DNA from: an uncultured Gammaproteobacteria bacterium
GTDB taxonomy: Bacteria > Patescibacteriota > Patescibacteriia > Patescibacteriales > UBA12465
NCBI GenBank assembly: GCA_964639785.1
Contig: CAZXEE010000004.1
Span: 1-56,879 of the forward strand
Length of the DNA: 56,879 nt
Direction of reading: 5' to 3'
Under the pieces are notes generated by a model. The model was not told where the DNA came from and made no database searches. It saw nothing but the letters and a program-made list of their open reading frames with translations. Of the stretch, positions 1 to 56,879 are shown in pieces. The stretch's first letter is position 1; each line of letters begins with the position of its first letter. Made by a program: the position numbers and the translations under genes.

Positions 1-342
1 ATGACGTCAAATCAGCATGGTTCTTACGCCTTGGGCAACACACGTGCTACAATGGAAGGTACAGAGGGACGCCAAACCGCGAGGTGGAGCAAATCCCAAA
101 AAACCTTTCTCAGTTCGGATCGAAGTCTGCAACTCGACTTCGTGAAGCTGGAATCGCTAGTAATCGTAGGTCAGCTATACTACGGTGAATACGTTCTCGG
201 GTCTTGTACTCACCGCCCGTCAAGTCAAGGGAGTCGGCAATACCCGAAGTCCCCATTAGGGGCCGAAGGTAGGGTCGGCGACAAGGACTAAGTCGTAACA
301 AGGCATCCGTAGCGGAAGCTGTGGATGGATCACCTCCTTTCT
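1..342 (+). rRNA. rrs: 16S rRNA, 3'-terminal ~340 nt (partial, continues upstream of the window)
   Basis: Contains universal 16S strings gtgctacaatgg, gaatcgctagtaatcg, ggtgaatacgttc, caccgcccgtca and aagtcgtaacaagg. The anti-Shine-Dalgarno tail ggatcacctcctttct ends at ~342. Track ORFs 1..291(+) and 110..301(-) lie inside this RNA gene. Confidence 0.95.
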
Positions 343-10268: not shown

Positions 10269-11654
10269 ATGAATTATTTTAAAAAAGCGGGAGAGTTCTT
10301 GCTTTATCTCTTGGCTTTCCTCTTGCCGATCCAGACCCGATTGATTATCCGTCCGGGAATAATCAATTTCGGTTATTTGGAGTATGGGACTATCAGCTTG
10401 TATCTGACTGATATTGTCCTGGTTGTCCTGTTGTCGTTTTTGGCCATAAACTTATTACGGCCTAAGAAGAAAAAATTATTCAGTCTTAATCTGTTTCAAG
10501 ATAAGATCAAGAATGACTATGCCTTAATAGTCTTGATATTTTTTGAATTGGTTGTTTTTGTTTCGATCTTTTTTGCTCCCTACGTCCTTTTAGCGGTTTA
10601 TAAATATCTCTTGTTCCTGTTGGGTATAATAGTTTTCTTGATAGTCCGACAAGGCCAATTTTTCAATCGCTTGAAATTGATCTATAGCTTTTTGACTGGC
10701 ATATTCTTGCAATCCATTTTAGCCTTATATCAATTTTTGACTCAATCGACTTTTGCTAGCAAGATATTGGGTTTGTCTTTGCATAATCCGGAAGTTCCGG
10801 GAGTTTCGGTGGTTGAAGTTTACAATCGCCAGGGCTTATTGGTCCGTTGGCTGAGGTCTTATGGCGGTTTGGATCATCCTAATATACTGGGTGGAGTTTT
10901 AGCGATTGGTATAATAATCTTGGTTGGCTTGTTGGTAGAGAGAAGAAAATGGCAGATAGCGGCTAAACATTTGAAAGCATTTGTTATTACTAATTATGTC
11001 TTGCTTTTCTTTTTTGGCCTGGCCCTGATTTTTACCTTTTCCCATGCTGCTTACCTGGCTGCTTTTATTGGTGTCGCTACCGTTTTGATATTGTCTGATT
11101 CTTGCCACTTGAAGAACAAAGTTGATCCGAAATCTTTGGACTGCGGTTTTATCTTAGGTTTTGGCGTTTTATTCATCGTTATCTGGTCAATGTTATTTAG
11201 TGTTATCGATGTCCGTTTGTTTGGCAACTCTCGTTTGGAACAGATTTCTAACCAAGAGAGAATTAGCGGTTATGTCGACTCTTTGCAAAGCATTGCGGCT
11301 CGCCCGGTTACCGGTTGGGGTGTTGGTAATTATTATCTTAGTTTGTATATCAGGCAACCTTTTTTCCAGAGTTATTTCTACCAGCCGGTCCATAACGTTT
11401 TCTTATTAGTGGCGGCGGAAACTGGAATCTTGGGAGCTTTGCTGTTCGTTTTTTTCTTGGTTATTTTGCTTTGGACAAAGCTATCGGATTTCAAGAATAA
11501 TGGACTTTCAATAGCTTTGCTCTTCGCCTTTTTGGTAATTATGCTAGTTGATCATTGGCTATGGAGCTTGCATTTCGGTATATTGTTCTTCTGGTTGGTA
11601 TTGGGGTTGTCGACGTGGGAGTTTAATGATAAGAAATTCGGTTTAAATAAATAG
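10269..11654 (+). CDS. O-antigen ligase-like (Wzy_C domain) polytopic membrane protein
   Basis: At least 10 predicted TM helices. A Wzy_C-like loop is followed by HNVFLLVAAETGILGALLFVFFLV. Confidence 0.75.
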   Translation: MNYFKKAGEFLLYLLAFLLPIQTRLIIRPGIINFGYLEYGTISLYLTDIVLVVLLSFLAINLLRPKKKKLFSLNLFQDKIKNDYALIVLIFFELVVFVSIFFAPYVLLAVYKYLLFLLGIIVFLIVRQGQFFNRLKLIYSFLTGIFLQSILALYQFLTQSTFASKILGLSLHNPEVPGVSVVEVYNRQGLLVRWLRSYGGLDHPNILGGVLAIGIIILVGLLVERRKWQIAAKHLKAFVITNYVLLFFFGLALIFTFSHAAYLAAFIGVATVLILSDSCHLKNKVDPKSLDCGFILGFGVLFIVIWSMLFSVIDVRLFGNSRLEQISNQERISGYVDSLQSIAARPVTGWGVGNYYLSLYIRQPFFQSYFYQPVHNVFLLVAAETGILGALLFVFFLVILLWTKLSDFKNNGLSIALLFAFLVIMLVDHWLWSLHFGILFFWLVLGLSTWEFNDKKFGLNK

Positions 11655-23910: not shown

Positions 23911-23939
23911 TTGTCATTTTTTTATTATTATGATATAAT
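23911..23939 (+). promoter_or_regulatory. Sigma70 promoter with extended -10 for the giant surface-protein locus
   Basis: TTGTCA, 17 nt spacer ending in tga, then TATAAT (TGaTATAAT). Confidence 0.5.
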
Positions 23940-24023: not shown

Positions 24024-27000
24024 ATGTTTCCCAAGATGAAAATTAATCGGTCTTTACTCCTCCTAGCTTTGTTGATAGGTGGATTTTTATTAGCTAAAAA
24101 CGTTTTTGCTTTGGATGTCGGCACCAATGAGGTCACTAATGCTATCCAATTGGGAGCTACTGATCCTAGAAAGATAGTTGCCCGGATTATCAATGTTGCC
24201 ATGATGTTTTTGGGTATTATTGCTGTTGGCATTATCATTTTTGCCGGTTTTAAATGGATGAGTTCCCAAGGCAACGAAGAGCAAATTGAATCAGCTAAGA
24301 AAATCTTGAAAGCTGGCGTTATTGGTTTAGTTATCATTTTAGCTTCTTGGGGAATTGCGGCTTTTATCTTGAATCGTTTGATAAATGCTACTGGAAATAA
24401 TGGTACTGGTACTGACGGTGGCAATGGCGGCGGTGGCAATTTACCTCCGTGTAGCGGCAATGGCTGCGTTGGAATGGCTTGCGATGACCAACCATTAGTT
24501 ACCGGTTGCCAATTCAGTACTTCCAGTTGTCAGGCTGGGTTAGCCTGTAGTCCGATTTCCTGTACTTGCCAACCTTGTCCGGCCTCTGATCCTAATTGCG
24601 CAACTAATTCCGGCGGCGGTTTCGGAGCTGCTTGCGATAGCGATTTAACTAACGCTACTTGCGATGCCAGCAACGAGATGTGTGATGCCAACCAAGGATT
24701 GACTTGCGATCCTAATTCCTGCACTTGCTTAGGCTCCCCGGTCATTACTGAAATCAGTCCTGTGGGTGGTTTCTGCGAAGGTGATGTTAATAAGGCTTGT
24801 GATACTGACAGTGATTGTGCTGGCGGTGTCGGTCCTTGTAATATAAATGCTCCGAATGGCGCTACCAATAATATCATTTCTATCCATGGTTATAATTTTG
24901 GGACCACTAGCACTTCAACCGTTGGTTTGAGTCAGGTGGTCTTTTTAGGTGATGAAGCTAATCAGGGTGATGACAAGGTAGCTTTGGATCCGACCGCTAT
25001 TAATCCGGTTTGTAATGATTCTTGGTCTAATAATGAAATTATAGTGGCTGTTCCGAGTGGGGCAGTTTCTGGTCCAATTAAGGTAGTCAATGGCAGCTTA
25101 AATAGCAATCTCATTGATTTTGATGTTACCAATAATGAAGTAGGAGCTCAGATTCCTAATTTCGTTTCCAATACTATTGCTCGTCCTGGTATTTGTCGCA
25201 TTACTCCGGACAATGAAGTCATGGGCGGTTCAGTCAGTTATTTCGGTAATAATTTGAGCGGTGCTGGATATTTTGGTAATGATGCTAATAAGTTTAAGGG
25301 TATTAGTTCGACTTTTAATTCTTCCAATACTTCCGGCTCTGTGCTAGTGCCGAATGTCGGCGCTGGTTATATGAGCACCTTTGTAATGAACCCGGCTAAT
25401 CAGAAAAGTAATTTTGTCGCTTTCCGCAAGAATCAGGAACCGCCGACGCCGCCTTCTATTTCTAATTTTGATCCACAAACAGGTAGTGCCGGACAGTATG
25501 TTACCATTCGCGGTAACGGTTTTGGTAATTCTCGAGGTAATAGCCAGGTATTTTTTGAAAGCACTGAAGCTAGTTATAGTTTCCCGGCCGTCTGCTTGCA
25601 ATCGGTTTGGAAAGATAACCAGGTTATCGTTAAAGTGCCAACCGGTTTAGCTAATGGAAGCTATAATATAAAAATGAAGATCGGTTCTTGGGAACAGATT
25701 AGTGCGGCTAGTAATTTTTCAGTTAACAGCGCTTTGTCCCTTTTGCCAAGCTTATGTAAGGTTGAACCGAGCCGCGGTCCGGTCAATGCTCAGGTCAGTT
25801 TCTATGGTGAATATTTCAGTTCTTCAACTTCCGGTGTCGCTAGATTTTATAATACTAAAGATTCTTCCGGCCCGATTTCTGATGATAGCGGTGCTAATAA
25901 GCTGAAAGCTAATGTCCCGATTGATGCCGTCACCGGTCCAGTCAGGATCGTTGATAATTCTCGAATTGGAAATAGCCTTAATTTTTCAGTCGGTTCTTGC
26001 ACTAATAATAGCGAGTGTGATAGTGGAACTCCTTTCTGTTGTCCTTTGGGCAGCCAGAAGCAGGGGCAATGCGCTATTTCTTTGATGAATTCTACTAATG
26101 GCTGCTATAGCAGTATTCCGACTTCTGTTTTTGAATGGAAATTCGGCACATCATTAGCCGTACCTTGCGATAGCGATACTTCTAATGCTACTTGCAATGC
26201 TAGCGATGCGATGTGTAATAGCGCTACGCTTCATTGCAATACTGAATCTTGTACTTGTGAACCTTGCCCGGAAAGCAATCCTCAATGCGGTACAGAGTCT
26301 TTCTATAGCTGTGCTCAGAAGGGCGGTGGCAGTTATTGTCCGACCGGCTTCTGTCCTAATTCTCCGGGCCAATGCTCCGCTTATGACGGCACAGTTAAGA
26401 TGGATACCGGCGTCAGTTGTGCTAATGCGGCTTGTAACGCTTTTCCTTTCTGCTCTGGCAATACTTGCCATTATTTGGCTAGCTTGAACAGATGTATTAA
26501 AAATGTTCCTACTCATTGCAGTTCCGATGTTAGTGTTTCTCTTGATTTTGGCAATCCGGTAATTTCTAGCAAGACTTTCGTTAAAAAATGCGTCAATTAT
26601 TCTGGCAATAATAATCGTTGGGAAATCAATTTCCCTGGATCTTGCCCGAACGGTTGGTCTAGTATCGGACATGGAAAATGCGCCGATACTCTTTCTGGTT
26701 CGACTTGTAATGTTTGTGCTGCTGGCGGCAAATGTATAAATGGAACTTGTGCTACTGATAAGATCTGTCCGGTTGGTTCAACTTGCAATTCTAATAATAA
26801 ATGTGAAACTAGCAACCAGGCTAGTTGTGATTGTTGTTGTGAAATCGGCCAAGATGCTCGTGATTGTTGCGCCCCTTTGACCTGTGGCGGTACTTGCGGT
26901 AATGATACTAATCCTAATGATAATACTGGATTCGGCGTCTGTTCCGGTTGTGCTGCAGTGGGTACCACGCAGGCTGAACATGATGCGGCTTGTAATTGTG

Positions 27001-35525: not shown

Positions 35526-37346
35526 ATGAAAAAGAACTTATTTCAGAGAGTGTTTAATTCCAGTCCACGTCGTCGGGCTTGGTGGATCTTTGCGGTTATT
35601 ATGGTGGTTACCATAGCATCGCTTTTGATTAGCGGCGGTAATTATTATAATAAGATGAGTGATTCTGTCGCTCAGGGTACTAAGAATTTTGTCGTTTTGC
35701 CTAAGGTTAAGGATATTCCTTTCCGTCTCGGCCTTGATTTACAAGGAGGCAGCCAATTGGTTTATGAAGCTGACGTCGCTTCTTTGTCTGATAGCGAAAA
35801 AGATGCCGCTTTGGAAGGCGTCCGTGAAGTTATTGAGCGTCGTATCAACATCTTTGGTGTGTCTGAGCCGGTAGTTCAGGTTAATAAGACTATGGCTGGT
35901 AATTATCGGATTATTGCTGAATTAGCTGGTATCAAAGATGTAAAAGAAGCTATCAAGATGATCGGTGAAACTCCTTTATTGGAATTCAGAGAGAGAGGCG
36001 AGGCTACTAACACTGCTGCCGTAGCTGCTGTGGATACTAAAAAATTAGATGAATTGAATAAAGCAGTAAATGACCAGGCTAAGAAGGTTTTAGATCAGGC
36101 TGTTAAAGGTGGAGATTTCTCAGCTTTAGCTAAGGCTAATAATCCGGCTAAGAGCGTTGGAGCTGGAGAAGATGCTTTGACTATCGGAGCTGAGAATGAC
36201 GGAGATTTGGGTTGGGTGACTGAAGATGTTAATCCGGATTTAGTTAAGCCGGTTAAGAATTTGGCTAAAGGCCAGGTTTTCAAGAATCTGATTACCACCA
36301 AGACCTCATATCACGTTGTTAAGTTAGAAGATAAGAGATTGCGTTCTGATAAGAAAACTATGGAGTATCATTTGATTGATATTTCTTTCCCGATCAAGAC
36401 CGCTTCCGATTTAGTTACAACTAATACCAATAGCGCTGATGGTAATTGGAAGAATACCCAATTGACTGGTAAGCATTTGAAACGGGCTGTAGTTAATTTC
36501 AATCCTAATGACGGTTCTCCGGAAGTATCATTAGAATTTAATGATGAGGGCGCTAAATTATTCGAAGAGATTACTGCTCGTAATATCGGAAAAGAGTTAG
36601 CGATTTTCCTCGATGGTTATCCAATCAGCGTTCCGACTGTCAATGAGAAGATTACCGGAGGCAAGGCTTCCGTTAGCGGTACTTTTACCGCTCAAGAGGC
36701 CAAATTATTGGCTCAGAGATTGAATACCGGTGCTTTGCCAGTTCCGATTTCTTTGGTTAGCCAGCAGAATGTTGGAGCTTCTTTAGGGCAGCAATCAGTT
36801 AATGACAGTATTTTTGCCGGTTTGATCGCTTTAGCCATGGTGGCCTTGTTCATGATTTTCTTCTATCGTTTGCCGGGCTTGTTGTCAGTTTTTGCTTTGA
36901 TTATTTATGGCTTTATTTCATTAGCCATCTTCAAACTCTGGCCAGTTACTATGACTTTGTCAGGTATTGCCGGTTTTATCCTCTCTATCGGTATGGCAGT
37001 TGATGCTAATATCTTGATCTTTGAGCGCTTGAAAGAAGAATTGAGAAATGGAAAGGATTTAGGCAAGGCTATTGAAGACGGTTTCGGCCGGGCTTGGCCT
37101 TCAATTCGGGATAGTAACCTGACTACCATGATCGTCTGTTTCGTTTTGATTGAATTCTCAACTAGCGTTATCAAGGGTTTTGCCGTTACTTTGTTATTGG
37201 GCGTAATCATTTCCATGTTCACCGCTATTTTCGTAACCAGGAATTTCTTGAAACTGATGTCTAATAAATGGTTGACCAAGTATCACTGGTTGATCACTAG
37301 TGTAAAAAGCAAAAAAGAAGTTTTGCCGGCTACCGAGTCCAAATAA
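35526..37346 (+). CDS. secD: Protein translocase subunit SecD with an embedded parvulin (PpiC)-type PPIase-like domain
   Basis: SecD motifs: LGLDLQGGSQLVYEAD, RRINIFGVSEPVVQ, GETPLLEFRE, ELAIFLDGYPISVPTV, GALPVPISL, and six C-terminal TM helices. Between them lies AKKVLDQAVKGGDFSALAK...DGDLGWVTED...LAKGQVF..TSYHVVKLEDKR. Confidence 0.85.
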   Translation: MKKNLFQRVFNSSPRRRAWWIFAVIMVVTIASLLISGGNYYNKMSDSVAQGTKNFVVLPKVKDIPFRLGLDLQGGSQLVYEADVASLSDSEKDAALEGVREVIERRINIFGVSEPVVQVNKTMAGNYRIIAELAGIKDVKEAIKMIGETPLLEFRERGEATNTAAVAAVDTKKLDELNKAVNDQAKKVLDQAVKGGDFSALAKANNPAKSVGAGEDALTIGAENDGDLGWVTEDVNPDLVKPVKNLAKGQVFKNLITTKTSYHVVKLEDKRLRSDKKTMEYHLIDISFPIKTASDLVTTNTNSADGNWKNTQLTGKHLKRAVVNFNPNDGSPEVSLEFNDEGAKLFEEITARNIGKELAIFLDGYPISVPTVNEKITGGKASVSGTFTAQEAKLLAQRLNTGALPVPISLVSQQNVGASLGQQSVNDSIFAGLIALAMVALFMIFFYRLPGLLSVFALIIYGFISLAIFKLWPVTMTLSGIAGFILSIGMAVDANILIFERLKEELRNGKDLGKAIEDGFGRAWPSIRDSNLTTMIVCFVLIEFSTSVIKGFAVTLLLGVIISMFTAIFVTRNFLKLMSNKWLTKYHWLITSVKSKKEVLPATESK

Positions 37347-37376: not shown

Positions 37377-38288
37377 ATGTATAACATCATACAAAAAAGA
37401 AAAATTTGGATCAGTATCTCGATTATCCTGTTTGTCACAGCTATCGTTTTCATCTCCATGTGGGGTTTGAAATTGGGTATCGATTTTACTGGTGGCAGCT
37501 TATTAGAAGTTAAGTTTGGGGCTAATAAGCCTAATGTGGTCGAGGTTTCTGAGGCTGTTAAAGATTTAAATCTGAATAGTTTGTCTGTCCAGCCTTCTGA
37601 AAGCTCGATGATCTTGCGTTTCCAGGAGAGCAGTGAAGATGTCCATCAGAAAGTCTTGTCCTCTTTGGATAAATTGAACAGCAGTAAGAATCCAGGCAGT
37701 GCCGATAGTTTTGAAGAATTGAATTTTACCGGTATCGGTCCTTCTGTCGGACAAGAATTGCAGAGAAAGGCTGTTTATGCCATTATCTTAGTTTTAATCG
37801 CTATCAGTTTGTATATTTCTTATGCTTTCCGTAAGGTGTCCAAGCCGATCGCTTCTTGGAAATATGGCGTGGCTACTTTGATCGCTTTATTCCATGATAC
37901 AGTTATCGTCATCGGCTTCTTCGCTTTATTGGGAAAATTCTGGGGAGTGGAAGTCAATACTTCTTTTGTAGCAGCCGTTTTAACTGTCTTAGGTTTCAGT
38001 GTTCATGATACCATCGTTGTTTTTGATCGTATCAGAGAAAACCTGCCTAAATCAGCTGATAACTTTGAGGTTACTGTTAATAGAAGCGTTAATCAGACCT
38101 TAACCCGTTCTATCAATACTTCAATGACAGTTATGTTCGTTTTGCTGTCCATTGTCTTATTTGGTGGCGAGTCAATTAAATATTTCGCTTTGGCTTTGCT
38201 GGTCGGTATCTTCTTCGGTACTTACAGTTCTATTTTCTTGGCTTCTCCGATCTTGGTTATCTGGAATAATACTAAAAAGAAAGCTTAA
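37377..38288 (+). CDS. secF: Protein translocase subunit SecF
   Basis: Motifs GIDFTGGSLLEV, IALFHDTVIVIGFFALLG, GFSVHDTIVVFDRIREN and RSINTS. Confidence 0.9.
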   Translation: MYNIIQKRKIWISISIILFVTAIVFISMWGLKLGIDFTGGSLLEVKFGANKPNVVEVSEAVKDLNLNSLSVQPSESSMILRFQESSEDVHQKVLSSLDKLNSSKNPGSADSFEELNFTGIGPSVGQELQRKAVYAIILVLIAISLYISYAFRKVSKPIASWKYGVATLIALFHDTVIVIGFFALLGKFWGVEVNTSFVAAVLTVLGFSVHDTIVVFDRIRENLPKSADNFEVTVNRSVNQTLTRSINTSMTVMFVLLSIVLFGGESIKYFALALLVGIFFGTYSSIFLASPILVIWNNTKKKA

Positions 38289-38310
38289 AAGAATAGTCGT
38301 GAATGATTAT

Positions 38311-38338
38311 AAAAACCACCCTTTTGGGTGGTTTTTTG
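38311..38338 (+). terminator. Intrinsic terminator after secF
   Basis: Hairpin aaaaaccaccc-tttt-gggtggtttttt. Confidence 0.75.
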
Positions 38339-38382
38339 TTGGGCCTTTGTGGTATAATAGTCTGGTAATAATCTATTCAATT

Positions 38383-40662
38383 ATGAAATCGATAAAATTG
38401 GGAGAATTCCATTTTAAAAAAGTCTTAGAAATGTTGATTGAAATCACTTATTTGGCGGCTTTCTTTGTTGTTCCTCTAGTCATGGCTTGGTTTTTGACGA
38501 CTGATAATGTCTTTGAACTTAATAAGATTATTATTTTCCGAGTTTTGACCCTGGTTTTATTCGTTTTAACCTTAGCTAAGGCTTTATTCTTTCCGGTTCG
38601 ACAAAAGCTTTCTGCTCGTTATCTGTGGCCGGTTTTAGGATTGATTTTATTCGGAGCTTTATCGTTATTCTTCTCAGTCGATCCAGCTAACAGTTATTTC
38701 GGTTCGAATGATCGCCAGCAGGGATATCGCAGCTTATTGTTCTATGCTTGGTGGTTTGTTCTTTTATTTTATAATTTGGTTACGGCTGAAAACCTAGGGC
38801 AGAGAATTAATCGGATATTCTGGACAGTGATCGGGTCTTCTTTTTTGGTTAGTCTCTATGGTATCCTTCAGATTCTAGGGATAGATTTCGTTTCTTGGAC
38901 TGAACCGCCTTTTGTAACGCACCGGATCACTTCCACTTTAGGCCAGCCTAATTTCCTCGGCTCTTATCTGCTCTTAGTTATCCCTTTGGCAGTTTATGGT
39001 CTAATTAAATATCGGAATATTTGGCTTCGTTTGTTCTTATCTTTTTCCTTATTGGCTCAACTTATCGTTCTGGTGTTGACCGGAAGCCGAGCTGCCTGGC
39101 TGGGGTTAGTTGGCGCCTTATTCTTATTTGTCATTTGGAATCTACGTAGTTTCTGGGTTAAGCTTTCAGCTCCTAGGAGACGAGGGGTTGTATTGGTTTC
39201 AATCTTTGCTTTATTGATTTTAGTTTTGTCTTCAGTCCAGAGCGAATATATTTCCGGTCGGGTTAAGGGGATGTTCGATTTTCAAGGTGGAAGCGTTTCG
39301 GCTCGTTTTAATTTTTGGTCTGGAGCTTTGAAATCAATTTCCCAAAAACCATTTATGGGCTATGGCTTAGAAAATCAGGGAACTGAGTTCGTCAAATATT
39401 ATCAAGCTGATTGGGCTAAAGCTGGGTTTGTAAATGCCAGTACTAATCGGGCTCACAATCTGATACTGGATTGGCTGTTGGTAGGCGGAATTATCGGTTT
39501 GATATTTTATCTTTGGGTTTATGTCAGCTTCTTCAAATGGGCCAACCAGAATCGCTTGCATAGCCGATATGGGCGGTTCTCAGAAGCTTTGATGTTGGCC
39601 GTAGCCGCTTGCTTGATATCCTTGCTATTTGGCTTTCCGGTGGTGGTTACTGAAGTTTATTTTTGGTCGTTTTTGGCTATTATTACTGCTATTAATGCTA
39701 TACCTGAGGAACATGAAGCTGGCCGGGATCTTAAGGTTAACTTAGTGGTTAAAATAATCATCATGCTTTTAGCCTTAGTCTTTACGGTCCGTCAGATCGC
39801 TGGGGAATTTAAAGCTTTGACGGCTGATAATTATTTCTGGGAGATGCGTCAGACGATAGCGCAGAATAATTATCCCCGAGCCTTGTTTTATTACCAGAAG
39901 ATTAAAGAACAGAACATTCACAATTCTTCCTATGGCTATTATCTGGTCGATTCTTTGCCTTATGATTTGGATGCCGCTTTCGATCCGGCAATCGCCAATC
40001 TATTCCGTCGGGAATTGAAAGACATCCTGCCGGGGATCGGTCGGGGTAATTATGATAATTATTATGAGCAGGCCAAGATCTATACTTTATTGAGGGATAG
40101 AGACCAAGCTGACGCTGCTTATCAGAAGATAGTGGCTCTCAGTCCGAAGCTGCCTAAGAATTATTTTGCTCGGGCTGAATTTTATATCGCTTTCGGACAG
40201 GATGATTTGGCTTTAGCTGATCTGGAAAAAACCTTGACGCTTTTGCCGCCGATAGCCAGCCCTTTGGCCACCTTATCCTCGCTCGAAAAATCAGTTAATT
40301 ACTATGAGAGTATGGTCTATAGGGAATTGGGTAATATTTATTTCCGCCAACAGAAATATGATTCAGCAATTGAGAGTTACAATGAAGCGTATCGTCATAA
40401 TCTGAATGATGCGGCGGTTTATAAAAAGATTGCTGATTCTTACTTTATGCAAGGCGACTTGAAAACGGCCACCTGGTATAATCTGCGCGGCGCTGAGAGG
40501 CATCCTAATGATTATTCCTGGCCCTTATCTGTTGCTATCTTATATCAGCAGCAAGGGCAGATGGAATCAGCTTTGAAATATCTGAATCAAGCTTTGGCCT
40601 TGGATTTTAACAAGCAGATACCTGCAGCGGTTGTTGAGGGAATCAGGCAAGGCAATAAATAA
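38383..40662 (+). CDS. Wzy_C/O-antigen-ligase-like polytopic membrane protein with a C-terminal TPR domain
   Basis: The track ORF 38152.. overlaps secF and crosses its terminator, so I prefer the ATG at 38383 (MKSIKLGEF), which follows TGgTATAAT at 38350-38358. Features are multiple TM helices, TGSRAAWLGL, RAHNLILDWLLVGGIIGL and C-terminal TPR-like repeats (YYEQAKIY.., FARAEFYIAFGQ.., YRELGNIYFRQQKYDSAIESYNEAY). Confidence 0.75.
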   Translation: MKSIKLGEFHFKKVLEMLIEITYLAAFFVVPLVMAWFLTTDNVFELNKIIIFRVLTLVLFVLTLAKALFFPVRQKLSARYLWPVLGLILFGALSLFFSVDPANSYFGSNDRQQGYRSLLFYAWWFVLLFYNLVTAENLGQRINRIFWTVIGSSFLVSLYGILQILGIDFVSWTEPPFVTHRITSTLGQPNFLGSYLLLVIPLAVYGLIKYRNIWLRLFLSFSLLAQLIVLVLTGSRAAWLGLVGALFLFVIWNLRSFWVKLSAPRRRGVVLVSIFALLILVLSSVQSEYISGRVKGMFDFQGGSVSARFNFWSGALKSISQKPFMGYGLENQGTEFVKYYQADWAKAGFVNASTNRAHNLILDWLLVGGIIGLIFYLWVYVSFFKWANQNRLHSRYGRFSEALMLAVAACLISLLFGFPVVVTEVYFWSFLAIITAINAIPEEHEAGRDLKVNLVVKIIIMLLALVFTVRQIAGEFKALTADNYFWEMRQTIAQNNYPRALFYYQKIKEQNIHNSSYGYYLVDSLPYDLDAAFDPAIANLFRRELKDILPGIGRGNYDNYYEQAKIYTLLRDRDQADAAYQKIVALSPKLPKNYFARAEFYIAFGQDDLALADLEKTLTLLPPIASPLATLSSLEKSVNYYESMVYRELGNIYFRQQKYDSAIESYNEAYRHNLNDAAVYKKIADSYFMQGDLKTATWYNLRGAERHPNDYSWPLSVAILYQQQGQMESALKYLNQALALDFNKQIPAAVVEGIRQGNK

Positions 40663-42419: not shown

Positions 42420-43235
42420 ATGCCTTATCTTTTTCTATTTTTTTCTCTAGCTTTTGGCTTGATAATCGGCAGTTTCATAAATTGCTTGGTTTGGCGGCTT
42501 TATAAGGAAGAAAGCCTGATGGGCCGTTCTTATTGTCCGAAGTGTCGTCATCAAATCCATTGGTACGACAATATCCCGGTGCTTAGCTGGTTGCTTTTGG
42601 GCGGCCGTTGCCGTCATTGCCGGAAGCCGATAGCTGTCCAGTATCCACTGGTTGAGCTTATCGTTGGCCTTCTATTCTCTCTGGTTTTTATCAAGTTTTA
42701 TGGTTCCGGTTTTGCCTATCCGGACTTTGATTTTTATTTTTGGATTTTTTCCGGTGCCAAGATTTGGTATTTGTTGGCTGGCTGGTTTGCCGTCGCAGCT
42801 ATGGCCATAGTCTTTATTTTTGATGCTCGCTGGCTCGAGATCTCTTTGCCGGCACTCCTATGGTGCGCCGCTTTCATTTTAGGCCTAGATCTGATCTCGG
42901 GTTATAACTATTTAAATATCTTGTTGAGCGTCGCGATTGGTGCCGGCTTTTTCGGCTTGCAATTCTGGTTGACTCGCGGCCGGGGAATAGGAGAGGGCGA
43001 TATCTGGTTAGGCGGCCTGATGGGCCTGATATTTCCAGATTGGCGTTTACTCCTGGCAGCCATCTTCGTTTCTTACATGATAGGAGGAGCAACTGGAATA
43101 ATCTTGCTTGCCGGCTGGGGGAAGAAGCTGAAAACCAAGCTGCCTTTGGGCGTTTTCTTAGCCCTAGGCTCTATTATCGCCTTATTTTTCGGTCAGTATC
43201 TGCTTACTTGGTATTTAGGGCTCTTAGGCCGTTAG
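42420..43235 (+). CDS. pilD: Prepilin peptidase (A24 family, PilD-like)
   Basis: N-terminal Cys-box domain (CPKCRHQIHWYDNIPVLSWLLLGGRCRHCRKPI), polytopic membrane region and GEGDIWLGG. Confidence 0.85.
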   Translation: MPYLFLFFSLAFGLIIGSFINCLVWRLYKEESLMGRSYCPKCRHQIHWYDNIPVLSWLLLGGRCRHCRKPIAVQYPLVELIVGLLFSLVFIKFYGSGFAYPDFDFYFWIFSGAKIWYLLAGWFAVAAMAIVFIFDARWLEISLPALLWCAAFILGLDLISGYNYLNILLSVAIGAGFFGLQFWLTRGRGIGEGDIWLGGLMGLIFPDWRLLLAAIFVSYMIGGATGIILLAGWGKKLKTKLPLGVFLALGSIIALFFGQYLLTWYLGLLGR

Positions 43236-50099: not shown

Positions 50100-52100
50100 A
50101 TGAGTGATATTACTTTTTTTGCCCAAACGACATTCCGCAATCAAATGCGTCGTTTTGGTATCAAAAAAGATGACCGGCGTCGTCACATGTACTTGATCGG
50201 AAAGACCGGTATGGGTAAGTCTACCATCTTGGAGAATATGATTATTGATGATATCCGGGCAGGCCATGGTGTGGCCGTGGTTGATCCTCATGGCGATTTG
50301 GCTGAGAAGATTATCGAATTTATTCCGGAAGAGAGGATCAAGGATGTTATTTATTTTAATCCTTCGGATATTGAATATCCGATTGCTTTTAACGTTGTTG
50401 AACAGGTTGAGCCTCATTTGCGCCACTTAGTCGCTTCCGGCTTGATTGGAGTCTTCCAGAAACTCTGGGCTGATTCTTGGGGTCCTCGTTTGGAATATAT
50501 TTTACGTAATGCCATCCTGGCTATTTTGGATTATCCTGGTTCGACCCTTTTGGGCGTGGTCCGGATATTATCGGATAAGCCATTCAGAAAGAAAGTGGTG
50601 GCTAATATCAAGGACCCGGTAGTGAAGTCTTTTTGGGAAAAAGAGTTCGCTTCTTATGCTGATAAATTTGCTTCTGAGGCAGTATCCCCCATCCAAAACA
50701 AGGTCGGTCAATTCTTGTCGACCGCCTTTATGAGAAATATCGTCGGCCAGGTCAAGTCATCTATCGACATGCGAGAGATCATGGATGGCAGCAAGATCCT
50801 AATCATGAACTTGAGTAAGGGTCGGATCGGTGAAGATAATTCCGCTTTGTTGGGTGCGATGATGGTTACCAAGATCCAGTTAGCCGCTATGAGCCGGGTT
50901 GATATGCCGGAGCAAGATCGAAAAGATTTCTATCTCTATATCGATGAATTCCAGAATTTCTCTACTGACAGTTTTGCTAGCATCTTGTCTGAAGCTCGAA
51001 AATACCGTCTATGCCTGATCATGGCCCATCAATATGTTGAACAGTTGTCGGAGAAGGTTAAGCCGGCGGTTTTTGGTAACGTGGGCACGATGATTGTCTT
51101 CAGGGTGGGAGCAGCTGATGCCGAAGAATTAGTCCGGGAGTTTACCCCGACTTTTACCGAAGAAGACCTGGTTAATCTGCCTAAATATGAAATGTATTTG
51201 AAACTGATGATTGATGGTGTTTCTTCTGATCCTTTCTCAGCCCGCGGTTTGCCGCCTTTGGCTAAGGAAGAAAAGACAGGTAATACTGAAGCGGTGATTG
51301 ATAATTCTCGCGAGGTTTATGCCAGCCGGAAAGAAGATGTTGAAGAGAAGATCTTGCGTTGGCATGATTCTGATGATGAAGATGCGGGTACTACCGGTGC
51401 CAAGAAGGCCGATGAATCTAGAGCGGATGATGCTCATAAATTCAATGCTATTTGTTCCAGCTGCGGCAAAGAGACAAAGACAGTGTTTGAACCGGATGGA
51501 GTCCGGCCGGTATATTGCAAGGATTGCTTGGAAAAGGCTAGAGAACAGAAAAAAGCTGGAATACCCCAGCCACAGCCACAACCCAAACCGGTAGTCGTTC
51601 CGACTCCAGTTGCTCCAAAACCGGTCGTATCAAAATCAGTTATGCCTCCGGTTGCCAAAGTTCCTAATCCGGCTCCGGTTCCAGTTGTGAAGGTTGAAGC
51701 TAAGAAGAACGATGATGATGCTCGTAAGTTCAAAGCCGTTTGTTCTAGTTGCGGCCAAGAGACGAAGACAGTATTTGAACCGGATGGCATCCGCCCGGTA
51801 TATTGCAAGGATTGTTTGGAAAAAGCTAGGGAAGCCAAAAAGAATGAGATAGAAAATCGTCGCCAGGCTAAGCAGGCGGAATTGGCGGAAATGAAACAGA
51901 GATGGAGCCCGGCTAGCGGTCAGACTATCGTTAAGGAAGAATCAGTGGCCAAGCCTTTGTCTTTGAGTGATCTGTCAGCTATCAAGCCGGTAGATTTCAG
52001 AGGAAGGGAAATCAATGAACCGAAGCCGAAGAAGATTGATGACGATGTTGACAATGAGGAGGAAAAAGAGTTAAAAGAAGGAGATACGGTTCAATTTTAA
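50100..52100 (+). CDS. Soluble TraD/TrwB/VirD4-like (T4SS coupling protein-like, FtsK/HerA superfamily) P-loop ATPase with a Pro-rich linker and two C-terminal CxxC-x17-CxxC zinc ribbons
   Basis: Walker A LIGKTGMGKST at aa ~33 with no preceding TM helix. Also VVDPHGDL, Walker B FYLYIDEFQNF and AHQY. The C-terminus carries two copies of CSSCGxETKTVFEPDGxRPVYCKDCLEKARE. Confidence 0.6.
   Translation: MSDITFFAQTTFRNQMRRFGIKKDDRRRHMYLIGKTGMGKSTILENMIIDDIRAGHGVAVVDPHGDLAEKIIEFIPEERIKDVIYFNPSDIEYPIAFNVVEQVEPHLRHLVASGLIGVFQKLWADSWGPRLEYILRNAILAILDYPGSTLLGVVRILSDKPFRKKVVANIKDPVVKSFWEKEFASYADKFASEAVSPIQNKVGQFLSTAFMRNIVGQVKSSIDMREIMDGSKILIMNLSKGRIGEDNSALLGAMMVTKIQLAAMSRVDMPEQDRKDFYLYIDEFQNFSTDSFASILSEARKYRLCLIMAHQYVEQLSEKVKPAVFGNVGTMIVFRVGAADAEELVREFTPTFTEEDLVNLPKYEMYLKLMIDGVSSDPFSARGLPPLAKEEKTGNTEAVIDNSREVYASRKEDVEEKILRWHDSDDEDAGTTGAKKADESRADDAHKFNAICSSCGKETKTVFEPDGVRPVYCKDCLEKAREQKKAGIPQPQPQPKPVVVPTPVAPKPVVSKSVMPPVAKVPNPAPVPVVKVEAKKNDDDARKFKAVCSSCGQETKTVFEPDGIRPVYCKDCLEKAREAKKNEIENRRQAKQAELAEMKQRWSPASGQTIVKEESVAKPLSLSDLSAIKPVDFRGREINEPKPKKIDDDVDNEEEKELKEGDTVQF
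51438..51545 (+). repeat. Intragenic 108-nt repeat, copy 1 (zinc-ribbon module)
   Basis: aaattcaatgctatttgttccagctgcggcaaagagacaaagacagtgtttgaaccggatgga... aligns with copy 2 at high identity by eye. Confidence 0.8.
51726..51833 (+). repeat. Intragenic 108-nt repeat, copy 2 (zinc-ribbon module)
   Basis: aagttcaaagccgtttgttctagttgcggccaagagacgaagacagtatttgaaccggatggc.... It lies 288 nt downstream of copy 1 in the same frame. Confidence 0.8.
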
Positions 52101-53863: not shown

Positions 53864-53890
53864 GTCGTTTTGTTAGTAATTTGGTATAAT
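53862..53890 (+). promoter_or_regulatory. Sigma70 promoter with extended -10 for the pilin gene; predicted leaderless transcript
   Basis: TTGTCG, 17 nt spacer, TGgTATAAT ending at 53890. The ATG at 53897 lies 7 nt after the -10 element. Confidence 0.5.
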
Positions 53891-53896
53891 TTGATC

Positions 53897-54967
53897 ATGA
53901 TAAATAGAAGAAGAGGTTTTACTTTAATCGAACTCCTTGTGGTTATTGCCATCATCGGTATTTTAGCAACTATTTCTGTTTTGGCTCTTAATAATGCTCG
54001 GGCTAAGAGTCGTGATGCTAAGCGGATGGCAGATGTCAAACAAATTCAAACTGCTCTCGAACTTTATTTTAATGATAATGGCCGTTACCCAACGACAGAA
54101 GAGTTTGAAAGGGGATCGCTTTATTCTACTTCAACAATGGGAACTACAAGTTATATGGCAGTTATCCCAGAAGCTCCAATGCCTCCTGATGGTGCTTGTG
54201 ATGTTGAGTCTAATCAGTTTTCCTACGTTTCTGTTAATGGGGGTGAGGATTATAAGATACAATTTTGTTTAGGCGGACTTGTCGGTGGCTTGTCGCCTAG
54301 TACTAAATGCGCTATGTCCGGCGGGATATTAAATCAGGAATGTTTTGTTTGTGGTGATTTGATAAAATATGGCGGAGGACCATTTGATTCTTCGGGCATT
54401 AAGCACAACAATGGCGGGTATTATAGAACTGTAAATATTTGTGATACAAACCAAGAAAATTGCCAGTGTTGGTTTCGGGATAATTTAAATATTGGCATTG
54501 AGGGCGCACAATCAGATGATGATATAATTGAAAAGCATTGTGATGACTGTACTCTTTATGGCGGACAATATAATAGAGATGAAGCCAATGCTTATCCTGG
54601 CTGGAATGTTAATGGCGATCAAGGTATTTGTCCTAATGGCTGGCATATTCCTAGTAGTGCTGAATTCTTAACCTTGGTTAATAATTTAGGTGGGGTGACT
54701 GTGGCCGGAGGTAAACTAAAACAGATCGGTACAGTTGAAGGTGGTACTGGCTTATGGGGATCACCTAATACTGGTGCTACTGATGAATCTGGTTTTTCGG
54801 CTGTTCCTGGTTTTTGGGCTGCTAATACTAGGGGAATTTATTGGGCGTCTGATTGGGGATCACCTTACTATCCGGTTATGTGGTTGCAGTATGATACGGC
54901 AGCAGTTCAATATTTAGGCGGCTTGGATCCTTCTTATAATATGTCTGTTCGTTGTCTTAAGGATTAA
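53897..54967 (+). CDS. Type IV pilin (class III signal peptide) fused to a C-terminal FISUMP domain
   Basis: I prefer the ATG at 53897 over the track's TTG at 53870. The prepilin motif is MINRRRG|FTLIELLVVIAIIGILATISV, with Glu at +5. The pilin body reads ARAKSRDAKRMADVKQIQTALELYFNDNGRYP. FISUMP motifs are GGYYRTVNI, CWFRDNLNIG, YGGQY, GICPNGWHIPSSAEFLTLVNNLGG, GGKLK, SGFSAVPG and SVRCLKD. Confidence 0.85.
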   Translation: MINRRRGFTLIELLVVIAIIGILATISVLALNNARAKSRDAKRMADVKQIQTALELYFNDNGRYPTTEEFERGSLYSTSTMGTTSYMAVIPEAPMPPDGACDVESNQFSYVSVNGGEDYKIQFCLGGLVGGLSPSTKCAMSGGILNQECFVCGDLIKYGGGPFDSSGIKHNNGGYYRTVNICDTNQENCQCWFRDNLNIGIEGAQSDDDIIEKHCDDCTLYGGQYNRDEANAYPGWNVNGDQGICPNGWHIPSSAEFLTLVNNLGGVTVAGGKLKQIGTVEGGTGLWGSPNTGATDESGFSAVPGFWAANTRGIYWASDWGSPYYPVMWLQYDTAAVQYLGGLDPSYNMSVRCLKD

Positions 54968-55884: not shown

Positions 55885-56879
55885 GTCAAAAATGTGGGAA
55901 AATCTCAATAAGGGTGTATGGTGAATGCCTTGACATAAGAGGACGATGAAGGACGTAGCAGCCTGCGATAAGCTTCGGGGAGGTGGCAAGCAACCTTTGA
56001 ACCGAAGATTTCCGAATGGGGAAACCTATCCCATTGAAGATGGGATGAGCTGGCGTAAGCCAGCTGGAAGACCCGGTGAACTGAAACATCTTAGTAGCCG
56101 GAGGAAAAGAGAACAATAGTTATTCCCTTAGTAGTGGCGAGCGAAAAGGGAGAAGTCTAAACTTTATAAACTGCATATAATTTATTTTGCTTTTGTGAAA
56201 TGGTTATATAGAAGGATCTGGGTCCATATGTTTGTAGGGGGTTGTAAGGTCGTAGTGCTTGTTTCCTAGATAGACAGGGCCGAGTCATAAAAATTGATTT
56301 TTAATCGAATCGAACTGGAAAGTTCAGCCAGAGCGGGTGATAGCCCCGTAGATGAAAAAAATCTTTTCTCGGTAATTACGATTCTTAAGTAGGGCGGGCC
56401 TCGTGAAATCCCGTCTGAAGCCAGGTCGACCATGACCTAAGACTAAATACTTCTTATGATCGATAGTGAACTAGTACCATGAGGGAAAGGTGAAAAGCAT
56501 CCCGGTGAGGGAGGTGAAATAGTACCTGAAACCATATACCTACAAGGAGTCGGAGCCTACGCAAGTGGGTGACGGCGTGCCTATTGAAGAAGGAGCCAAC
56601 GAGTTTGTTCAACGTGGCTTACATAATCTCCGTTCGGAGAGCATGTGGAGTGAAAGCGAGGGTTAATAGCCCGTGTCAATTATTATATAGGTGCGAATCC
56701 TTTTTTGCATCTATATAATAATTGATCTGTCGCGTTGACAAGACCCGAAGCCGGGTGATCTAACCATGACCAGGATGAGCTCTAGCGAAAGCTAGAGGGA
56801 GGTCCGAACCCATGAGCCGTGCAACACTCTGGGATGAGTTGTGGTTAGCGGTGAAATTCCAATCGAACTCGGCGATAGC
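55885..56879 (+). rRNA. rrl: 23S rRNA, 5' ~1 kb (partial, continues past the window end; start +/-20 nt)
   Basis: Conserved domain I strings ggtgaatgcc, gatgaaggacgt, gcgataagc, tttccgaatgggg, gaactgaaacatct, agtagtggcgagcgaa, gatagccccgta, gtagggcggg, cgatagtgaac.agtaccatgagggaaaggtgaaaag, agtacctgaaacc, gacccgaagccgggtgatcta and ggtgaaattccaatcgaac. Confidence 0.93.

What the first reader, a model, noticed from the sequence alone, without database searches (positions are those of the whole stretch)
24024..29261. VirB2/TrbC-like T4SS-pilin membrane domain fused to a ~1600-aa cysteine-rich IPT/TIG ectodomain
After a signal peptide, residues ~52-118 form two hydrophobic helices joined by a short polar loop and followed by a charged helix cap (FAGFKWMSSQGNEEQIESAKKILKAGVIGLVIILASW). 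This is the hallmark layout of conjugative T4SS pilins of the VirB2/TrbC type, which are normally ~100 aa and stand alone. Here the module is fused through a Gly/Asn linker to a long ectodomain. The ectodomain holds repeated 6-Cys modules, four IPT/TIG-like domains, a long Cys-rich tract and a Big_5-like Ig domain. If the N-terminal module polymerises or docks like a pilin, the protein would be a giant adhesin displayed on, or anchored through, a T4SS-type pilin scaffold. I am not aware of this architecture having been characterised.
Basis: partly seen in the sequence, partly recalled or inferred. Interest (0 to 1): 0.75.

Follow-up and report, generated by a model that had tools for sequence, protein, structure and literature searches.

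The report
Giant surface protein on a pilin anchor
An ultra-small (Patescibacteria/CPR) bacterium encodes a 1,745-residue cysteine-rich surface protein whose membrane end is a real conjugation-type (VirB2-like) pilin, and because this fusion is conserved in hundreds of species but apparently undescribed, it is a testable candidate for how these bacteria attach adhesins to their enigmatic type IV secretion pilins.

Summary
ORF 24024-29261 (+) encodes 1,745 aa: a signal peptide, then a two-helix hairpin that passes Pfam T4SS_pilin (PF18895), then a Gly/Asn linker. After that comes a ~1,600-aa ectodomain with 120 Cys, four TIG-like units, Big_5 and further Ig-like sandwiches.

- **Real gene:** full-length relatives occur in at least 574 GTDB species (Falkowbacteria/ABY1-type Patescibacteria). 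They always sit in the same housekeeping neighbourhood, usually next to a second, ~900-aa pilin fusion.
- **More than an anchor:** the pilin module is the best-conserved part of the protein. It is 60% identical to stand-alone 125-aa pilins that head tandem pilin arrays, and the fusion starts exactly where those pilins end.
- **Unproven:** no VirB4 or VirB6 lies near the gene in the window or in 78 related loci, and the structure search was uninformative. Display on a pilus is therefore inferred, not shown.
- **Not unique:** N-terminal pilin fusions to other ectodomains are common in this phylum, yet I found no paper describing them.

Verdict: a new variant of a known kind (CPR VirB2-like pilins), and moderately to highly interesting.

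The parts
23911..23939 (+). Promoter-like site (TTGTCA-17-TATAAT with an upstream TG), 85 nt upstream of the ATG, in the 120-bp divergent spacer shared with relA/spoT
   Evidence: 11 of 12 matches. This is a pattern match only; the total number of sites in the region is not above the shuffled controls. Spacer sequence.
24024..29261 (+). Whole gene: 1,745-aa pilin-ectodomain fusion protein
   Evidence: ORF; full-length homologues 1,586-2,524 aa at 35-66% identity, almost all carrying PF18895; at least 574 GTDB species.
24024..24110 (+). Signal peptide (aa 1-29; predicted signal peptidase I site NVFA|LD)
   Evidence: hydrophobic segment 5-33; the stand-alone pilins align with the same A-x-A|L/I-D junction; least conserved region (0.34). 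Cleavage is inferred.
24111..24395 (+). Mature VirB2-like pilin module (aa 30-124): short helix 34-39, long helices 48-80 and 85-124 joined by a 4-residue loop
   Evidence: PF18895 and NF045849 above cut-off. (AlphaFold helices). (60-66% identity to stand-alone pilins). (most conserved region, 0.59).
24396..24446 (+). Gly/Asn-rich linker (aa 125-141); the fusion begins exactly where stand-alone pilins end (...LINATGN)
   Evidence: alignment A1. (poorly conserved, 0.34; no conserved cleavage motif seen). (pLDDT below 50).
24447..24731 (+). Two copies of a ~45-aa Cys module (aa 142-236)
   Evidence: internal profile hits at 152-198 and 203-275, with a third copy at 713-788. (Cys invariant in 25 orthologues).
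24732..25994 (+). Four TIG/IPT-like Ig domains (aa 237-361, 383-470, 474-564, 571-657)
   Evidence: PF01833: one strong hit, one at threshold. (mutual cross-detection with family-internal profiles; unit 2 is the weakest).
25995..27893 (+). Long Cys-rich tract (aa 658-1290; over 80 Cys, nearly all invariant), with no Pfam match
   Evidence: Cys map. (invariant Cys columns). (no family found).
27894..28943 (+). Big_5 Ig-like domain, a helical insert and a second beta-sandwich (aa 1291-1640)
   Evidence: PF13205. (AlphaFold: sandwich at aa ~1490-1640 with pLDDT 84-97). (best PDB matches are the Ig-like strings of S-layer proteins SbsB/SbsC, E 1e-6 but TM ~0.2, so generic).
28944..29258 (+). Conserved C-terminal region (aa 1641-1745) with invariant NPWPP, YYCRD, DDLP and LKESYFF motifs; fold unknown
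   Evidence: invariant columns. (identity 0.52, second only to the pilin module). (not modelled, pLDDT below 50).
29286..32801 (+). Co-oriented neighbour 24 nt downstream: 1,171-aa secreted Cys-rich protein (He_PIG Ig domain plus Fib_succ_major); a conserved partner gene
   Evidence: Pfam. (signal peptide, 45 Cys, 24-nt gap). (a homologue present in 62 of 78 related loci).
32919..33635 (+). Bitopic membrane protein with a Thr-rich stalk and bacterial TSP3 (Ca-binding) repeats
   Evidence: (TM 64-97). (56 of 78 loci).
33647..34681 (+). Second bitopic TSP3-repeat protein with a PsbP-like C-terminal domain
   Evidence: (TM 71-98). (54 of 78 loci).

Best explanation
**Shown**
- The gene encodes a vertically inherited, widely conserved Patescibacteria (Falkowbacteria/ABY1-type) cell-surface protein.
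- Its N-terminal 95-residue mature module is a true CPR VirB2-like pilin (PF18895). It belongs to the same subclass as the 'lead' pilin of the tandem pilin arrays.
- At the exact C-terminus of that pilin, a short Gly/Asn linker joins it to a ~1,600-aa disulfide-rich string of Cys modules, four TIG domains, Big_5 and other Ig-like sandwiches.

**Inferred topology**
- The protein is inserted by Sec and the signal peptide is cut after Ala29.
- Helix 48-80 runs from outside to inside. The SSQG turn and the Lys-rich start of helix 85-124 face the cytoplasm.
- The second helix returns to the outside, so the whole Cys-rich ectodomain is extracellular.

**Inferred mechanism**
- The hairpin is not a passive anchor. 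It is a pilin-type assembly module that packs against the stand-alone VirB2-like pilins, or is handled by the same machinery.
- The protein would then act as a minor, adhesin-bearing subunit at or on the pilin polymer.
- This would fill the place of the VirB5/PrgB-type adhesin that has not been found in these T4SSs.
- Its likely partners are the adjacent ~900-aa pilin fusion (present in most relatives) and the downstream Cys-rich and TSP3 proteins.
- The ectodomain most likely mediates attachment to a host cell or surface.
For: **Identity of the module**
- PF18895 and NF045849 score above their cut-offs.
- The 86 closest hits to residues 1-140 all carry PF18895. Nearly all are stand-alone proteins of 111-186 aa at up to 66% identity, aligned from the signal peptide to the last residue.
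- AlphaFold gives a short helix plus two long helices with a 4-residue turn. This is the three-helix layout described for TraA F-pilin (PMC5018250).

**Specific constraint on the module**
- Across 25 orthologues the module is the most conserved region: 0.59 overall, 0.59 for the polar loop and 0.68 for TM2.
- The comparison values are 0.46 for the ectodomain and 0.34 for the signal peptide.
- The unrelated ~900-aa neighbour shares only this module with the target, at 57% identity.

**Link to the arrays**
- The module is 60-61% identical to the first pilin of the arrays in L001 and L003, 53% to that in L084, and 30-47% to the other array positions.
- In a neighbour-joining tree, fused modules and lead pilins form one clade apart from the other positions.
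- The arrays are positionally orthologous and the lead pilin is their most conserved member.

**Topology fits display**
- In the F pilus the N- and C-termini are outside and the alpha2-alpha3 loop lines the lumen (PMC5018250).
- The 120 Cys and the Ig-like domains fit an extracellular location.

**Conservation**
- At least 574 species carry a relative, in a fixed syntenic locus with conserved secreted or membrane partners.

**Background**
- Patescibacteria T4SSs have essential VirB2-like pilins and no recognised adhesin (PMC12102498; PMC10633639; PMC12857230).
- Three genomes with a family member are VirB4-positive in Table S1 of PMC12102498.
Against: - No pilus made of PF18895 proteins has been seen in any organism.
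- The gene is never next to T4SS genes. There is no VirB4 or VirB6 in the 57-kb window, and no unexplained Walker-A ORF within 10 kb in 78 loci.
- The related pilin arrays examined are also not near virB4.
- Structure search gave no match to solved conjugative pilins, and TrbC/VirB2 is below threshold.
- The VirB4 co-occurrence (3 of 3) is weak given an 80% base rate.
- High conservation of the hairpin could reflect some other membrane partner.
- The neighbour-joining tree rests on 92 columns without support values.
Confidence: 0.5

Rival explanations
1. **Static anchor.** The pilin-derived hairpin has been exapted as a simple N-terminal two-helix membrane anchor. The protein stays in the cytoplasmic membrane as a fibrillar adhesin or S-layer-like surface coat, independent of any T4SS or pilus.
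For: - The gene lies in a housekeeping locus (relA, hisS, lepB, clpP, secDF) and not in a T4SS cluster, in the window and in 78 loci.
- Many different ectodomains use the same N-terminal module, as expected of a general-purpose anchor.
- The C-terminal region resembles the Ig-like strings of S-layer proteins.
- The downstream partners are themselves membrane-anchored.
Against: - A passive anchor should drift like the signal peptide (0.34). Instead the hairpin, including its polar loop and its extracellular N-segment, is the best conserved region (0.59).
- It remains 60% identical to stand-alone lead pilins of other species.
Confidence: 0.35
2. **Carrier and release.** The pilin module only targets and translocates the protein. 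The ectodomain is then cut off at the Gly/Asn linker and released, or handed to the cell wall, leaving an ordinary pilin behind.
For: - The fusion point coincides exactly with the natural C-terminus of stand-alone pilins.
- The linker is flexible, poorly conserved and modelled at low confidence.
Against: - No conserved cleavage motif is seen at the junction in 25 orthologues.
- No dedicated protease lies in the conserved locus.
- A normal signal peptide would suffice for secretion, so the cost of keeping a conserved hairpin is unexplained.
Confidence: 0.08
3. **Artefact.** The long ORF results from a mis-assembly, or from a lost stop codon joining a pilin gene to a separate surface-protein gene in this one contig.
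For: Stand-alone pilins end exactly at the junction. The closest named hit is a 115-aa partial protein at a contig end.
Against: The same continuous fusion is found in more than 227 protein clusters and at least 574 species, down to 35% identity over the full length, from independent assemblies.
Confidence: 0.01

Closest known systems
VirB2-like pilins of Patescibacteria/CPR (Pfam PF18895 T4SS_pilin): tandem arrays, essential in Southlakia epibionticum (Wang 2023, PMC10633639; Quinonero-Coronel 2025, PMC12102498)
   Same: - Same family by profile score above the cut-off.
- 50-66% identity to stand-alone members.
- Same signal peptide, N-segment (D-x-G-x-N ... DPR) and hairpin.
- Same phylum.
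   Different: - Described members are ~120-160 aa and stand alone or sit in arrays. This one carries ~1,600 extra residues at its C-terminus.
- It lies in a housekeeping locus, not in an array or a T4SS cluster.
- The papers I could search do not mention fused forms, and PMC12102498 states that no adhesins were detected.
Classical conjugative pilins VirB2/TrbC (PF04956) and TraA F-pilin (structure: PMC5018250)
   Same: - Long leader followed by a short helix and two long hydrophobic helices with a short turn.
- The termini are predicted on the outside, so a C-terminal fusion is topologically compatible with display on a filament.
   Different: - PF04956 scores 13-20 bits, below its cut-off of 27.9. 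There is no sequence or Foldseek match to solved pilins.
- A C-terminal fusion excludes the head-to-tail cyclisation of VirB2/TrbC (my knowledge of that family).
- The organism is a monoderm with no outer-membrane T4SS parts.
Mycoplasma ICE pilin-like protein (NCBIfam NF045849, Mbov_0395 family)
   Same: The isolated module scores 41.2 bits (cut-off 40) over 68 of 80 profile positions. This is a monoderm conjugation context.
   Different: The whole protein scores 36.1 bits, below the cut-off. The family is ~80 aa, encoded on ICEs, and has no ectodomain.
Type IV pilus or T2SS minor pilins with large C-terminal domains (for example the N_methyl + Fib_succ_major fusion at 53870-54967 in this window)
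   Same: Same design logic: a pilin-type assembly helix at the N-terminus carries a large adhesin-like domain as a presumed low-abundance or tip subunit.
   Different: This is an unrelated pilin class (single N-terminal helix, prepilin peptidase PilD, T4P machinery). The analogy is functional, not homology.
T4SS-associated adhesins: VirB5 tip protein (Gram-negative) and PrgB-type surface adhesins (Gram-positive)
   Same: The proposed role: the contact-making element of a T4SS.
   Different: - No sequence relationship.
- Those adhesins are separate proteins, not pilin fusions.
- PrgB-type adhesins were not detected in Patescibacteria (PMC12102498).
Giant Ig-repeat surface proteins and S-layer proteins (for example SbsB/SbsC)
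   Same: Strings of Ig-like beta-sandwiches, as modelled for residues 1290-1640 (Foldseek E 1e-6). TIG and Big_5 domains are present.
   Different: - TM-scores are ~0.2, so the match is a generic fold.
- The anchoring differs (SLH or cell wall against a pilin hairpin).
- There are 120 Cys and a 630-aa Cys tract with no known family.

Membership tests
T4SS_pilin (Pfam PF18895; CPR/monoderm VirB2-like pilins) | Profile HMM score at or above the curated gathering threshold | tested here: met
   33.0 bits (whole protein) and 34.5-34.7 bits (module) against a cut-off of 26.6. All 35 aligned relatives also match.
T4SS_pilin (Pfam PF18895; CPR/monoderm VirB2-like pilins) | Cleavable leader followed by two long hydrophobic helices joined by a short polar turn | tested here: met
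   Hydropathy segments 5-33, 50-81 and 93-121. AlphaFold helices 48-80 and 85-124, pLDDT 82-90. Cleavage itself is inferred.
T4SS_pilin (Pfam PF18895; CPR/monoderm VirB2-like pilins) | Small stand-alone protein (~110-190 aa) | tested here: not met
   The protein is 1,745 aa. Stand-alone relatives end at ...LINATGN, where the fusion begins. The module is a member; the protein is a fusion variant.
T4SS pilin in the functional sense (VirB2/TraA type) | Encoded with T4SS machinery (virB4, virB6, virB3) nearby | tested here: not met
   - None among the window ORFs.
- The only related gene is a soluble VirD4-like ATPase 21 kb away.
- No candidate lies within 10 kb in 78 related loci.
T4SS pilin in the functional sense (VirB2/TraA type) | T4SS (VirB4) present in the same genome | tested here: inconclusive
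   - Only this 57-kb contig is available for this organism.
- Three related genomes with a family member (L061, L080, L081) are VirB4 'Yes' in Table S1 of PMC12102498.
- The base rate is 2,417 of 3,035 assemblies.
T4SS pilin in the functional sense (VirB2/TraA type) | Polymerises into an extracellular filament after extraction from the membrane | not testable with these tools
   This needs microscopy, fractionation or multimer modelling. No multimer predictor was available.
TrbC/VirB2 (Pfam PF04956) | Profile HMM score at or above the gathering threshold | tested here: not met
   13.3-19.8 bits against a cut-off of 27.9. Only 7 of 35 relatives give E < 0.01, the best being 9e-6.
TrbC/VirB2 (Pfam PF04956) | Structural match to solved conjugative pilins | tested here: inconclusive
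   Foldseek against PDB: best E 1.5, only generic helical hairpins. The profile against PDB sequences gave no hit. Two-helix hairpins are too simple for this test to discriminate.
Mbov_0395 pilin-like conjugal transfer protein (NCBIfam NF045849) | Score at or above the curated cut-off (40 bits) | tested here: inconclusive
   41.2 bits for residues 1-140 alone and 36.1 bits for the whole protein.
IPT/TIG domain proteins (PF01833) | At least one TIG domain above the threshold | tested here: met
   42.7 bits for the whole protein and 50.9 bits for residues 473-568. Internal profiles indicate four units.
Big_5 bacterial Ig-like domain (PF13205) | Profile score above the threshold | tested here: met
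   39.8-45.7 bits against a cut-off of 23.6, residues 1293-1346.

The most novel reading that the evidence does not exclude
The CPR VirB2-like pilins form a real extracellular filament, and this protein is built into it through its lead-pilin-type module. It would sit with the neighbouring ~900-aa fusion, most likely as the first-assembled distal subunits. That would make it a covalent pilin-adhesin, a one-polypeptide replacement for the VirB5 or PrgB adhesins of other T4SSs, and the host-recognition end of the essential Patescibacteria T4SS.
Probability: 0.25. Interest if true: 0.85.

Novelty: new variant of a known kind. Interest (0 to 1): 0.62.

Why it matters
**The open question.** Patescibacteria make up a large share of bacterial diversity and live attached to other cells. 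Their T4SS and its VirB2-like pilins are essential in the one species tested. Nobody knows what the pilins build, and no T4SS adhesin has been found.

**What this adds.**
- It is a conserved family in which a lead-type pilin is covalently joined to a giant adhesin-like ectodomain.
- Such a protein gives a concrete handle: a large, antigenic, easily tagged marker.
- If it co-assembles with the pilins, it would reveal where and whether a pilus forms and what it touches.
- N-terminal fusions of the same module to lectin-like and Ig-like ectodomains appear to be common, so this may be a general surface-display strategy of the phylum.

**If it is only an anchor.** It would still be a previously undescribed way for monoderm bacteria to tether surface proteins.

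Tried and rejected
- **Foldseek of the AlphaFold model of residues 1-135 against PDB.** Only generic helical hairpins came up (best E 1.5), so it says nothing for or against a pilin.
- **Profile of the module against PDB sequences and the full protein against PDB.** The first gave no hits. The second gave one weak TIG hit (8co1, E 0.005).
- **Pfam on the Cys modules, the 530-aa Cys tract, TIG-like units 2 and 4 and the last 243 aa.** No families were found.
- **AlphaFold of residues 1290-1745.** The conserved last ~100 aa could not be modelled.
- **Looking for T4SS genes beside the gene.**
  - All window ORFs of at least 100 aa outside the target were scanned.
  - All ORFs of at least 450 aa in 78 related loci were compared with window genes, and the 21 unmatched ones were checked for a Walker A motif. 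None had one.
  - Stand-alone pilin arrays were also inspected, and none has virB4 within 10 kb.
- **Direct genome-level test for VirB4 in this organism.** This was impossible because only the contig is available. I used the published Table S1 instead, matching three related genomes by name.
- **Literature searches for the fusion.** Only papers on the stand-alone pilins turned up.
- **Mobile-element origin.** Rejected because synteny with housekeeping genes is conserved down to 35-40% identity.
- **Mis-assembly or read-through.** Rejected.
Full report
**1. What is there**

Window 24024-29261 (+) is a single ATG-initiated ORF of 1,745 codons. It follows a 120-bp spacer shared with the divergent relA/spoT gene. 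That spacer holds a near-consensus promoter-like site, which is a pattern match only.

The window has about 41% G+C and carries housekeeping genes of a small-genome bacterium. These are gyrA, rmuC, radC, an AddA-like helicase-nuclease, ruvB, queA, lepB, hisS, relA, clpP, secDF, ftsAZ, nrdRDG and pilD. The closest named relatives are Candidatus Falkowbacteria and the Patescibacteria group.

**2. The N-terminal module**

*Layout.* Hydropathy shows a signal peptide (5-33, NVFA|LD) and two hydrophobic segments, 50-81 and 93-121.

*Family scores.*
- Pfam T4SS_pilin (PF18895) scores 33-34.7 bits against a cut-off of 26.6.
- TrbC/VirB2 (PF04956) reaches only 13-20 bits against 27.9.
- NCBIfam NF045849, a mycoplasma ICE pilin-like protein, scores 41.2 bits on the isolated module (cut-off 40) and 36.1 bits on the whole protein.

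*Closest relatives.* A database search with residues 1-140 returned 86 proteins, all PF18895. Nearly all are stand-alone proteins of 111-186 aa from Patescibacteria at up to 66% identity. They align from the signal peptide to their last residues (...LINATGN), and the fusion starts exactly there.

*Structure.* AlphaFold with this alignment gives a short helix (34-39) and two long helices (48-80, 85-124) joined by a four-residue turn, with pLDDT 82-90 in the hairpin. This is the three-helix layout described for TraA F-pilin (PMC5018250). Foldseek against PDB returned only generic hairpins, and a profile search of PDB sequences found nothing. Fold comparison therefore neither supports nor refutes; the evidence for family membership comes from sequence profiles.

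**3. The ectodomain**

- A Gly/Asn linker (about residues 122-141) is followed by 120 cysteines spread over ~1,600 residues.
- Pfam finds TIG (strong at 473-568, at threshold at 230-370) and Big_5 (1293-1346).
- Profiles built from the orthologue alignment cross-detect four TIG-like units and three copies of a ~45-aa Cys module.
- The 630-aa Cys tract has no known family, but almost every Cys is invariant in 25 orthologues.
- AlphaFold of residues 1290-1745 gives Ig-like sandwiches. Their best PDB matches are the domain strings of S-layer proteins SbsB/SbsC (E 1e-6, TM ~0.2, so generic). It leaves the strongly conserved last 100 residues (NPWPP, YYCRD, LKESYFF) unmodelled.
- No enzymatic domain was found.

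**4. It is a conserved family, not an accident**

*Spread.* The full-length search found more than 227 clusters of 1,586-2,524 aa at 35-66% identity and ~100% coverage. Almost all carry PF18895 plus TIG and/or Big_5, and some also carry fn3 or Fib_succ_major. Sources name them only 'IPT/TIG domain-containing protein'.

*Synteny.* In 78 fetched loci the neighbourhood is fixed. RelA occurs in 62, LepB and HisS in 54 each, the 1,171-aa downstream Cys-rich protein in 62, the two TSP3 proteins in 56 and 54, ClpP in 49 and SecD in 44; many loci are cut by contig ends. The same order is seen at 40% identity on a 911-kb contig.

*A second fusion.* In 57 of 75 loci a second pilin fusion (~885-930 aa, PF18895 + Big_5) lies immediately upstream. 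The window's own clade lacks it. That protein shares nothing with the target except the pilin module, at 57% identity.

**5. The hairpin is more than an anchor**

- Across 25 orthologues the mature pilin module is the most conserved region, with mean pairwise identity 0.59. That includes the polar loop (0.59) and the extracellular N-segment (0.48).
- The ectodomain averages 0.46, the signal peptide 0.34 and the linker 0.34.
- The module is 60-61% identical to the first gene of the five- to six-gene pilin arrays in L001 and L003, and 53% to the first gene of the seven-gene array in L084. Identity to the other array members is 30-47%.
- The arrays are positionally orthologous between species, and the lead pilin is their most conserved member.
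- In a simple neighbour-joining tree, the modules of the giant and ~900-aa fusions cluster with the lead pilins, apart from all other array positions. In several genomes the two fused modules from the same genome pair together (92 columns, no support values, so only suggestive).

**6. The architecture class is broad**

A profile of the module hits 68,413 representative clusters at E <= 1e-3 and 20,734 at E <= 1e-10. Among the best 150:
- about 19 have one N-terminal module on a protein of 571-3,384 aa;
- many have 2-17 tandem modules;
- the rest are stand-alone.

The fusions examined carry TIG/Big_5/Big_7/DUF4215, Laminin_G_3 or Big_5 alone.

**7. Link to a T4SS**

*Published background.*
- VirB4 is present in 2,417 of 3,035 Patescibacteria assemblies.
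- VirB2-like pilins (PF18895/PF04956) are present in 1,948 assemblies, often as arrays.
- No PrgB-type adhesin has been detected (PMC12102498).
- The pilin array is essential in Southlakia (PMC10633639).
- A recent review calls a pilus an 'intriguing possibility' (PMC12857230).

*What I found.*
- The window has no VirB4 or VirB6. It has a soluble VirD4-like ATPase at 50100-52100, a type reported to be near-universal and mostly unlinked to virB4.
- None of the 78 related loci has an unexplained Walker-A ORF within 10 kb.
- The Falkowbacteria-type arrays inspected are also not beside virB4.
- Three genomes that carry a family member are 'VirB4: Yes' and class ABY1 in the published Table S1: GW2011_GWF2_43_32, ADurb.Bin115 and HGW-Falkowbacteria-2. 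Both CG23 Falkowbacteria assemblies are also 'Yes'. With an 80% base rate this only shows that a T4SS is not absent from the lineage.

**8. Mechanism**

*Shown:* a conserved surface protein with a true VirB2-like pilin module at its N-terminus.

*Inferred from established pilin biology and the F-pilus structure* (termini outside, alpha2-alpha3 loop in the lumen or cytoplasm): Sec insertion, cleavage after Ala29, a hairpin with a cytoplasmic turn, and the ectodomain outside.

*My preferred reading (about 0.5):* the module is kept because it packs against the stand-alone pilins or their machinery. The protein would then be an adhesin-bearing minor subunit at or on the pilin assembly. The pilus-tip version of this reading has probability about 0.25.

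*Main rival (about 0.35):* the hairpin has been exapted as a static membrane anchor for a fibrillar surface protein. Release by cleavage at the linker (about 0.08) and artefact (about 0.01) are less likely.

**9. Novelty**

The pilin family and its arrays are known. The covalent pilin-ectodomain fusion, its wide conservation, its lead-pilin affinity and its paired operon are not described in any paper I could find. The domain combination is visible in database annotations. I rate it a new variant of a known kind.

Noticed in passing
window 1-340 and 55898-56879: The contig starts inside the 3' end of a 16S rRNA gene and ends inside the 5' part of a 23S rRNA gene, both on the + strand. The two rRNA genes are therefore separated by ~55.5 kb of protein-coding genes, an unlinked rRNA arrangement. 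tRNA-Pro (565-636) follows the 16S.
   Followed up: partly
window 50100-52100 (+): A 666-aa VirD4/TraG-like P-loop ATPase (TrwB_AAD_bind, TraG-D_C, T4SS-DNA_transf). It has no hydrophobic segment and has two C-terminal treble-clef zinc fingers separated by a Pro-rich spacer. It is the only T4SS-related gene in the window.
   Followed up: partly
window 53870-54967 (+); also L001 1678-2700: A type IV pilin (N_methyl, T2SSG) is fused to a Fib_succ_major domain, the same domain found in the 1,171-aa neighbour of the target. This is a parallel case of a pilin carrying an adhesin-like domain, but in the unrelated type IV pilus system. The prepilin peptidase gene is at 42420-43235.
   Followed up: no
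L007-L083 (e.g. L005 7305-9986, L010 7293-9989): A second pilin fusion of ~885-930 aa (PF18895 + Big_5) sits directly upstream of the giant gene in 57 of 75 related loci. It is missing in the window and its closest relatives (L006, L017, L036, L040, L076). In several genomes the two modules from the same genome cluster together in a neighbour-joining tree.
   Followed up: partly
L001 10001-12648, L003 10001-12622, L084 9541-12353: Tandem arrays of 5-7 stand-alone PF18895 pilins lie in a conserved housekeeping context (SMC, SBP_bac_1, a lone pilin, HTH, methyltransferase ... array). They are positionally orthologous between species, and the first gene is the most conserved (58-60% against 35-51%). 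This looks more like a fixed set of distinct subunits than antigenic variation.
   Followed up: partly
proteins P0207-P0262: Many representatives carry 2-17 pilin modules in one polypeptide (e.g. P0262: 1,775 aa, 17 matched stretches; P0238: 1,147 aa, 11). These could be true polypilin proteins or arrays merged by gene calling.
   Followed up: no
window 35526-37346 (+): SecD carries a PPIC-type peptidyl-prolyl isomerase (Rotamase) domain at residues ~171-271, between SecD_1st and the P1 head. The homologue in L005 (519 aa) shows no such hit.
   Followed up: no
loci L007, L011, L013, L014 and many others: Dozens of GTDB representative contigs that encode this Patescibacteria-specific locus are titled 'uncultured Gammaproteobacteria bacterium' (MAG TPA_asm records). 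One is titled Bacillota and one Balneolaceae. These are evidently placeholder or wrong organism names.
   Followed up: no
window 38152-40662 (+) versus 37377-38288 (+): The listed TTG start of the Wzy_C/TPR protein overlaps secF by 137 nt. The true start is probably further downstream. A second Wzy_C protein is at 10269-11654.
   Followed up: no
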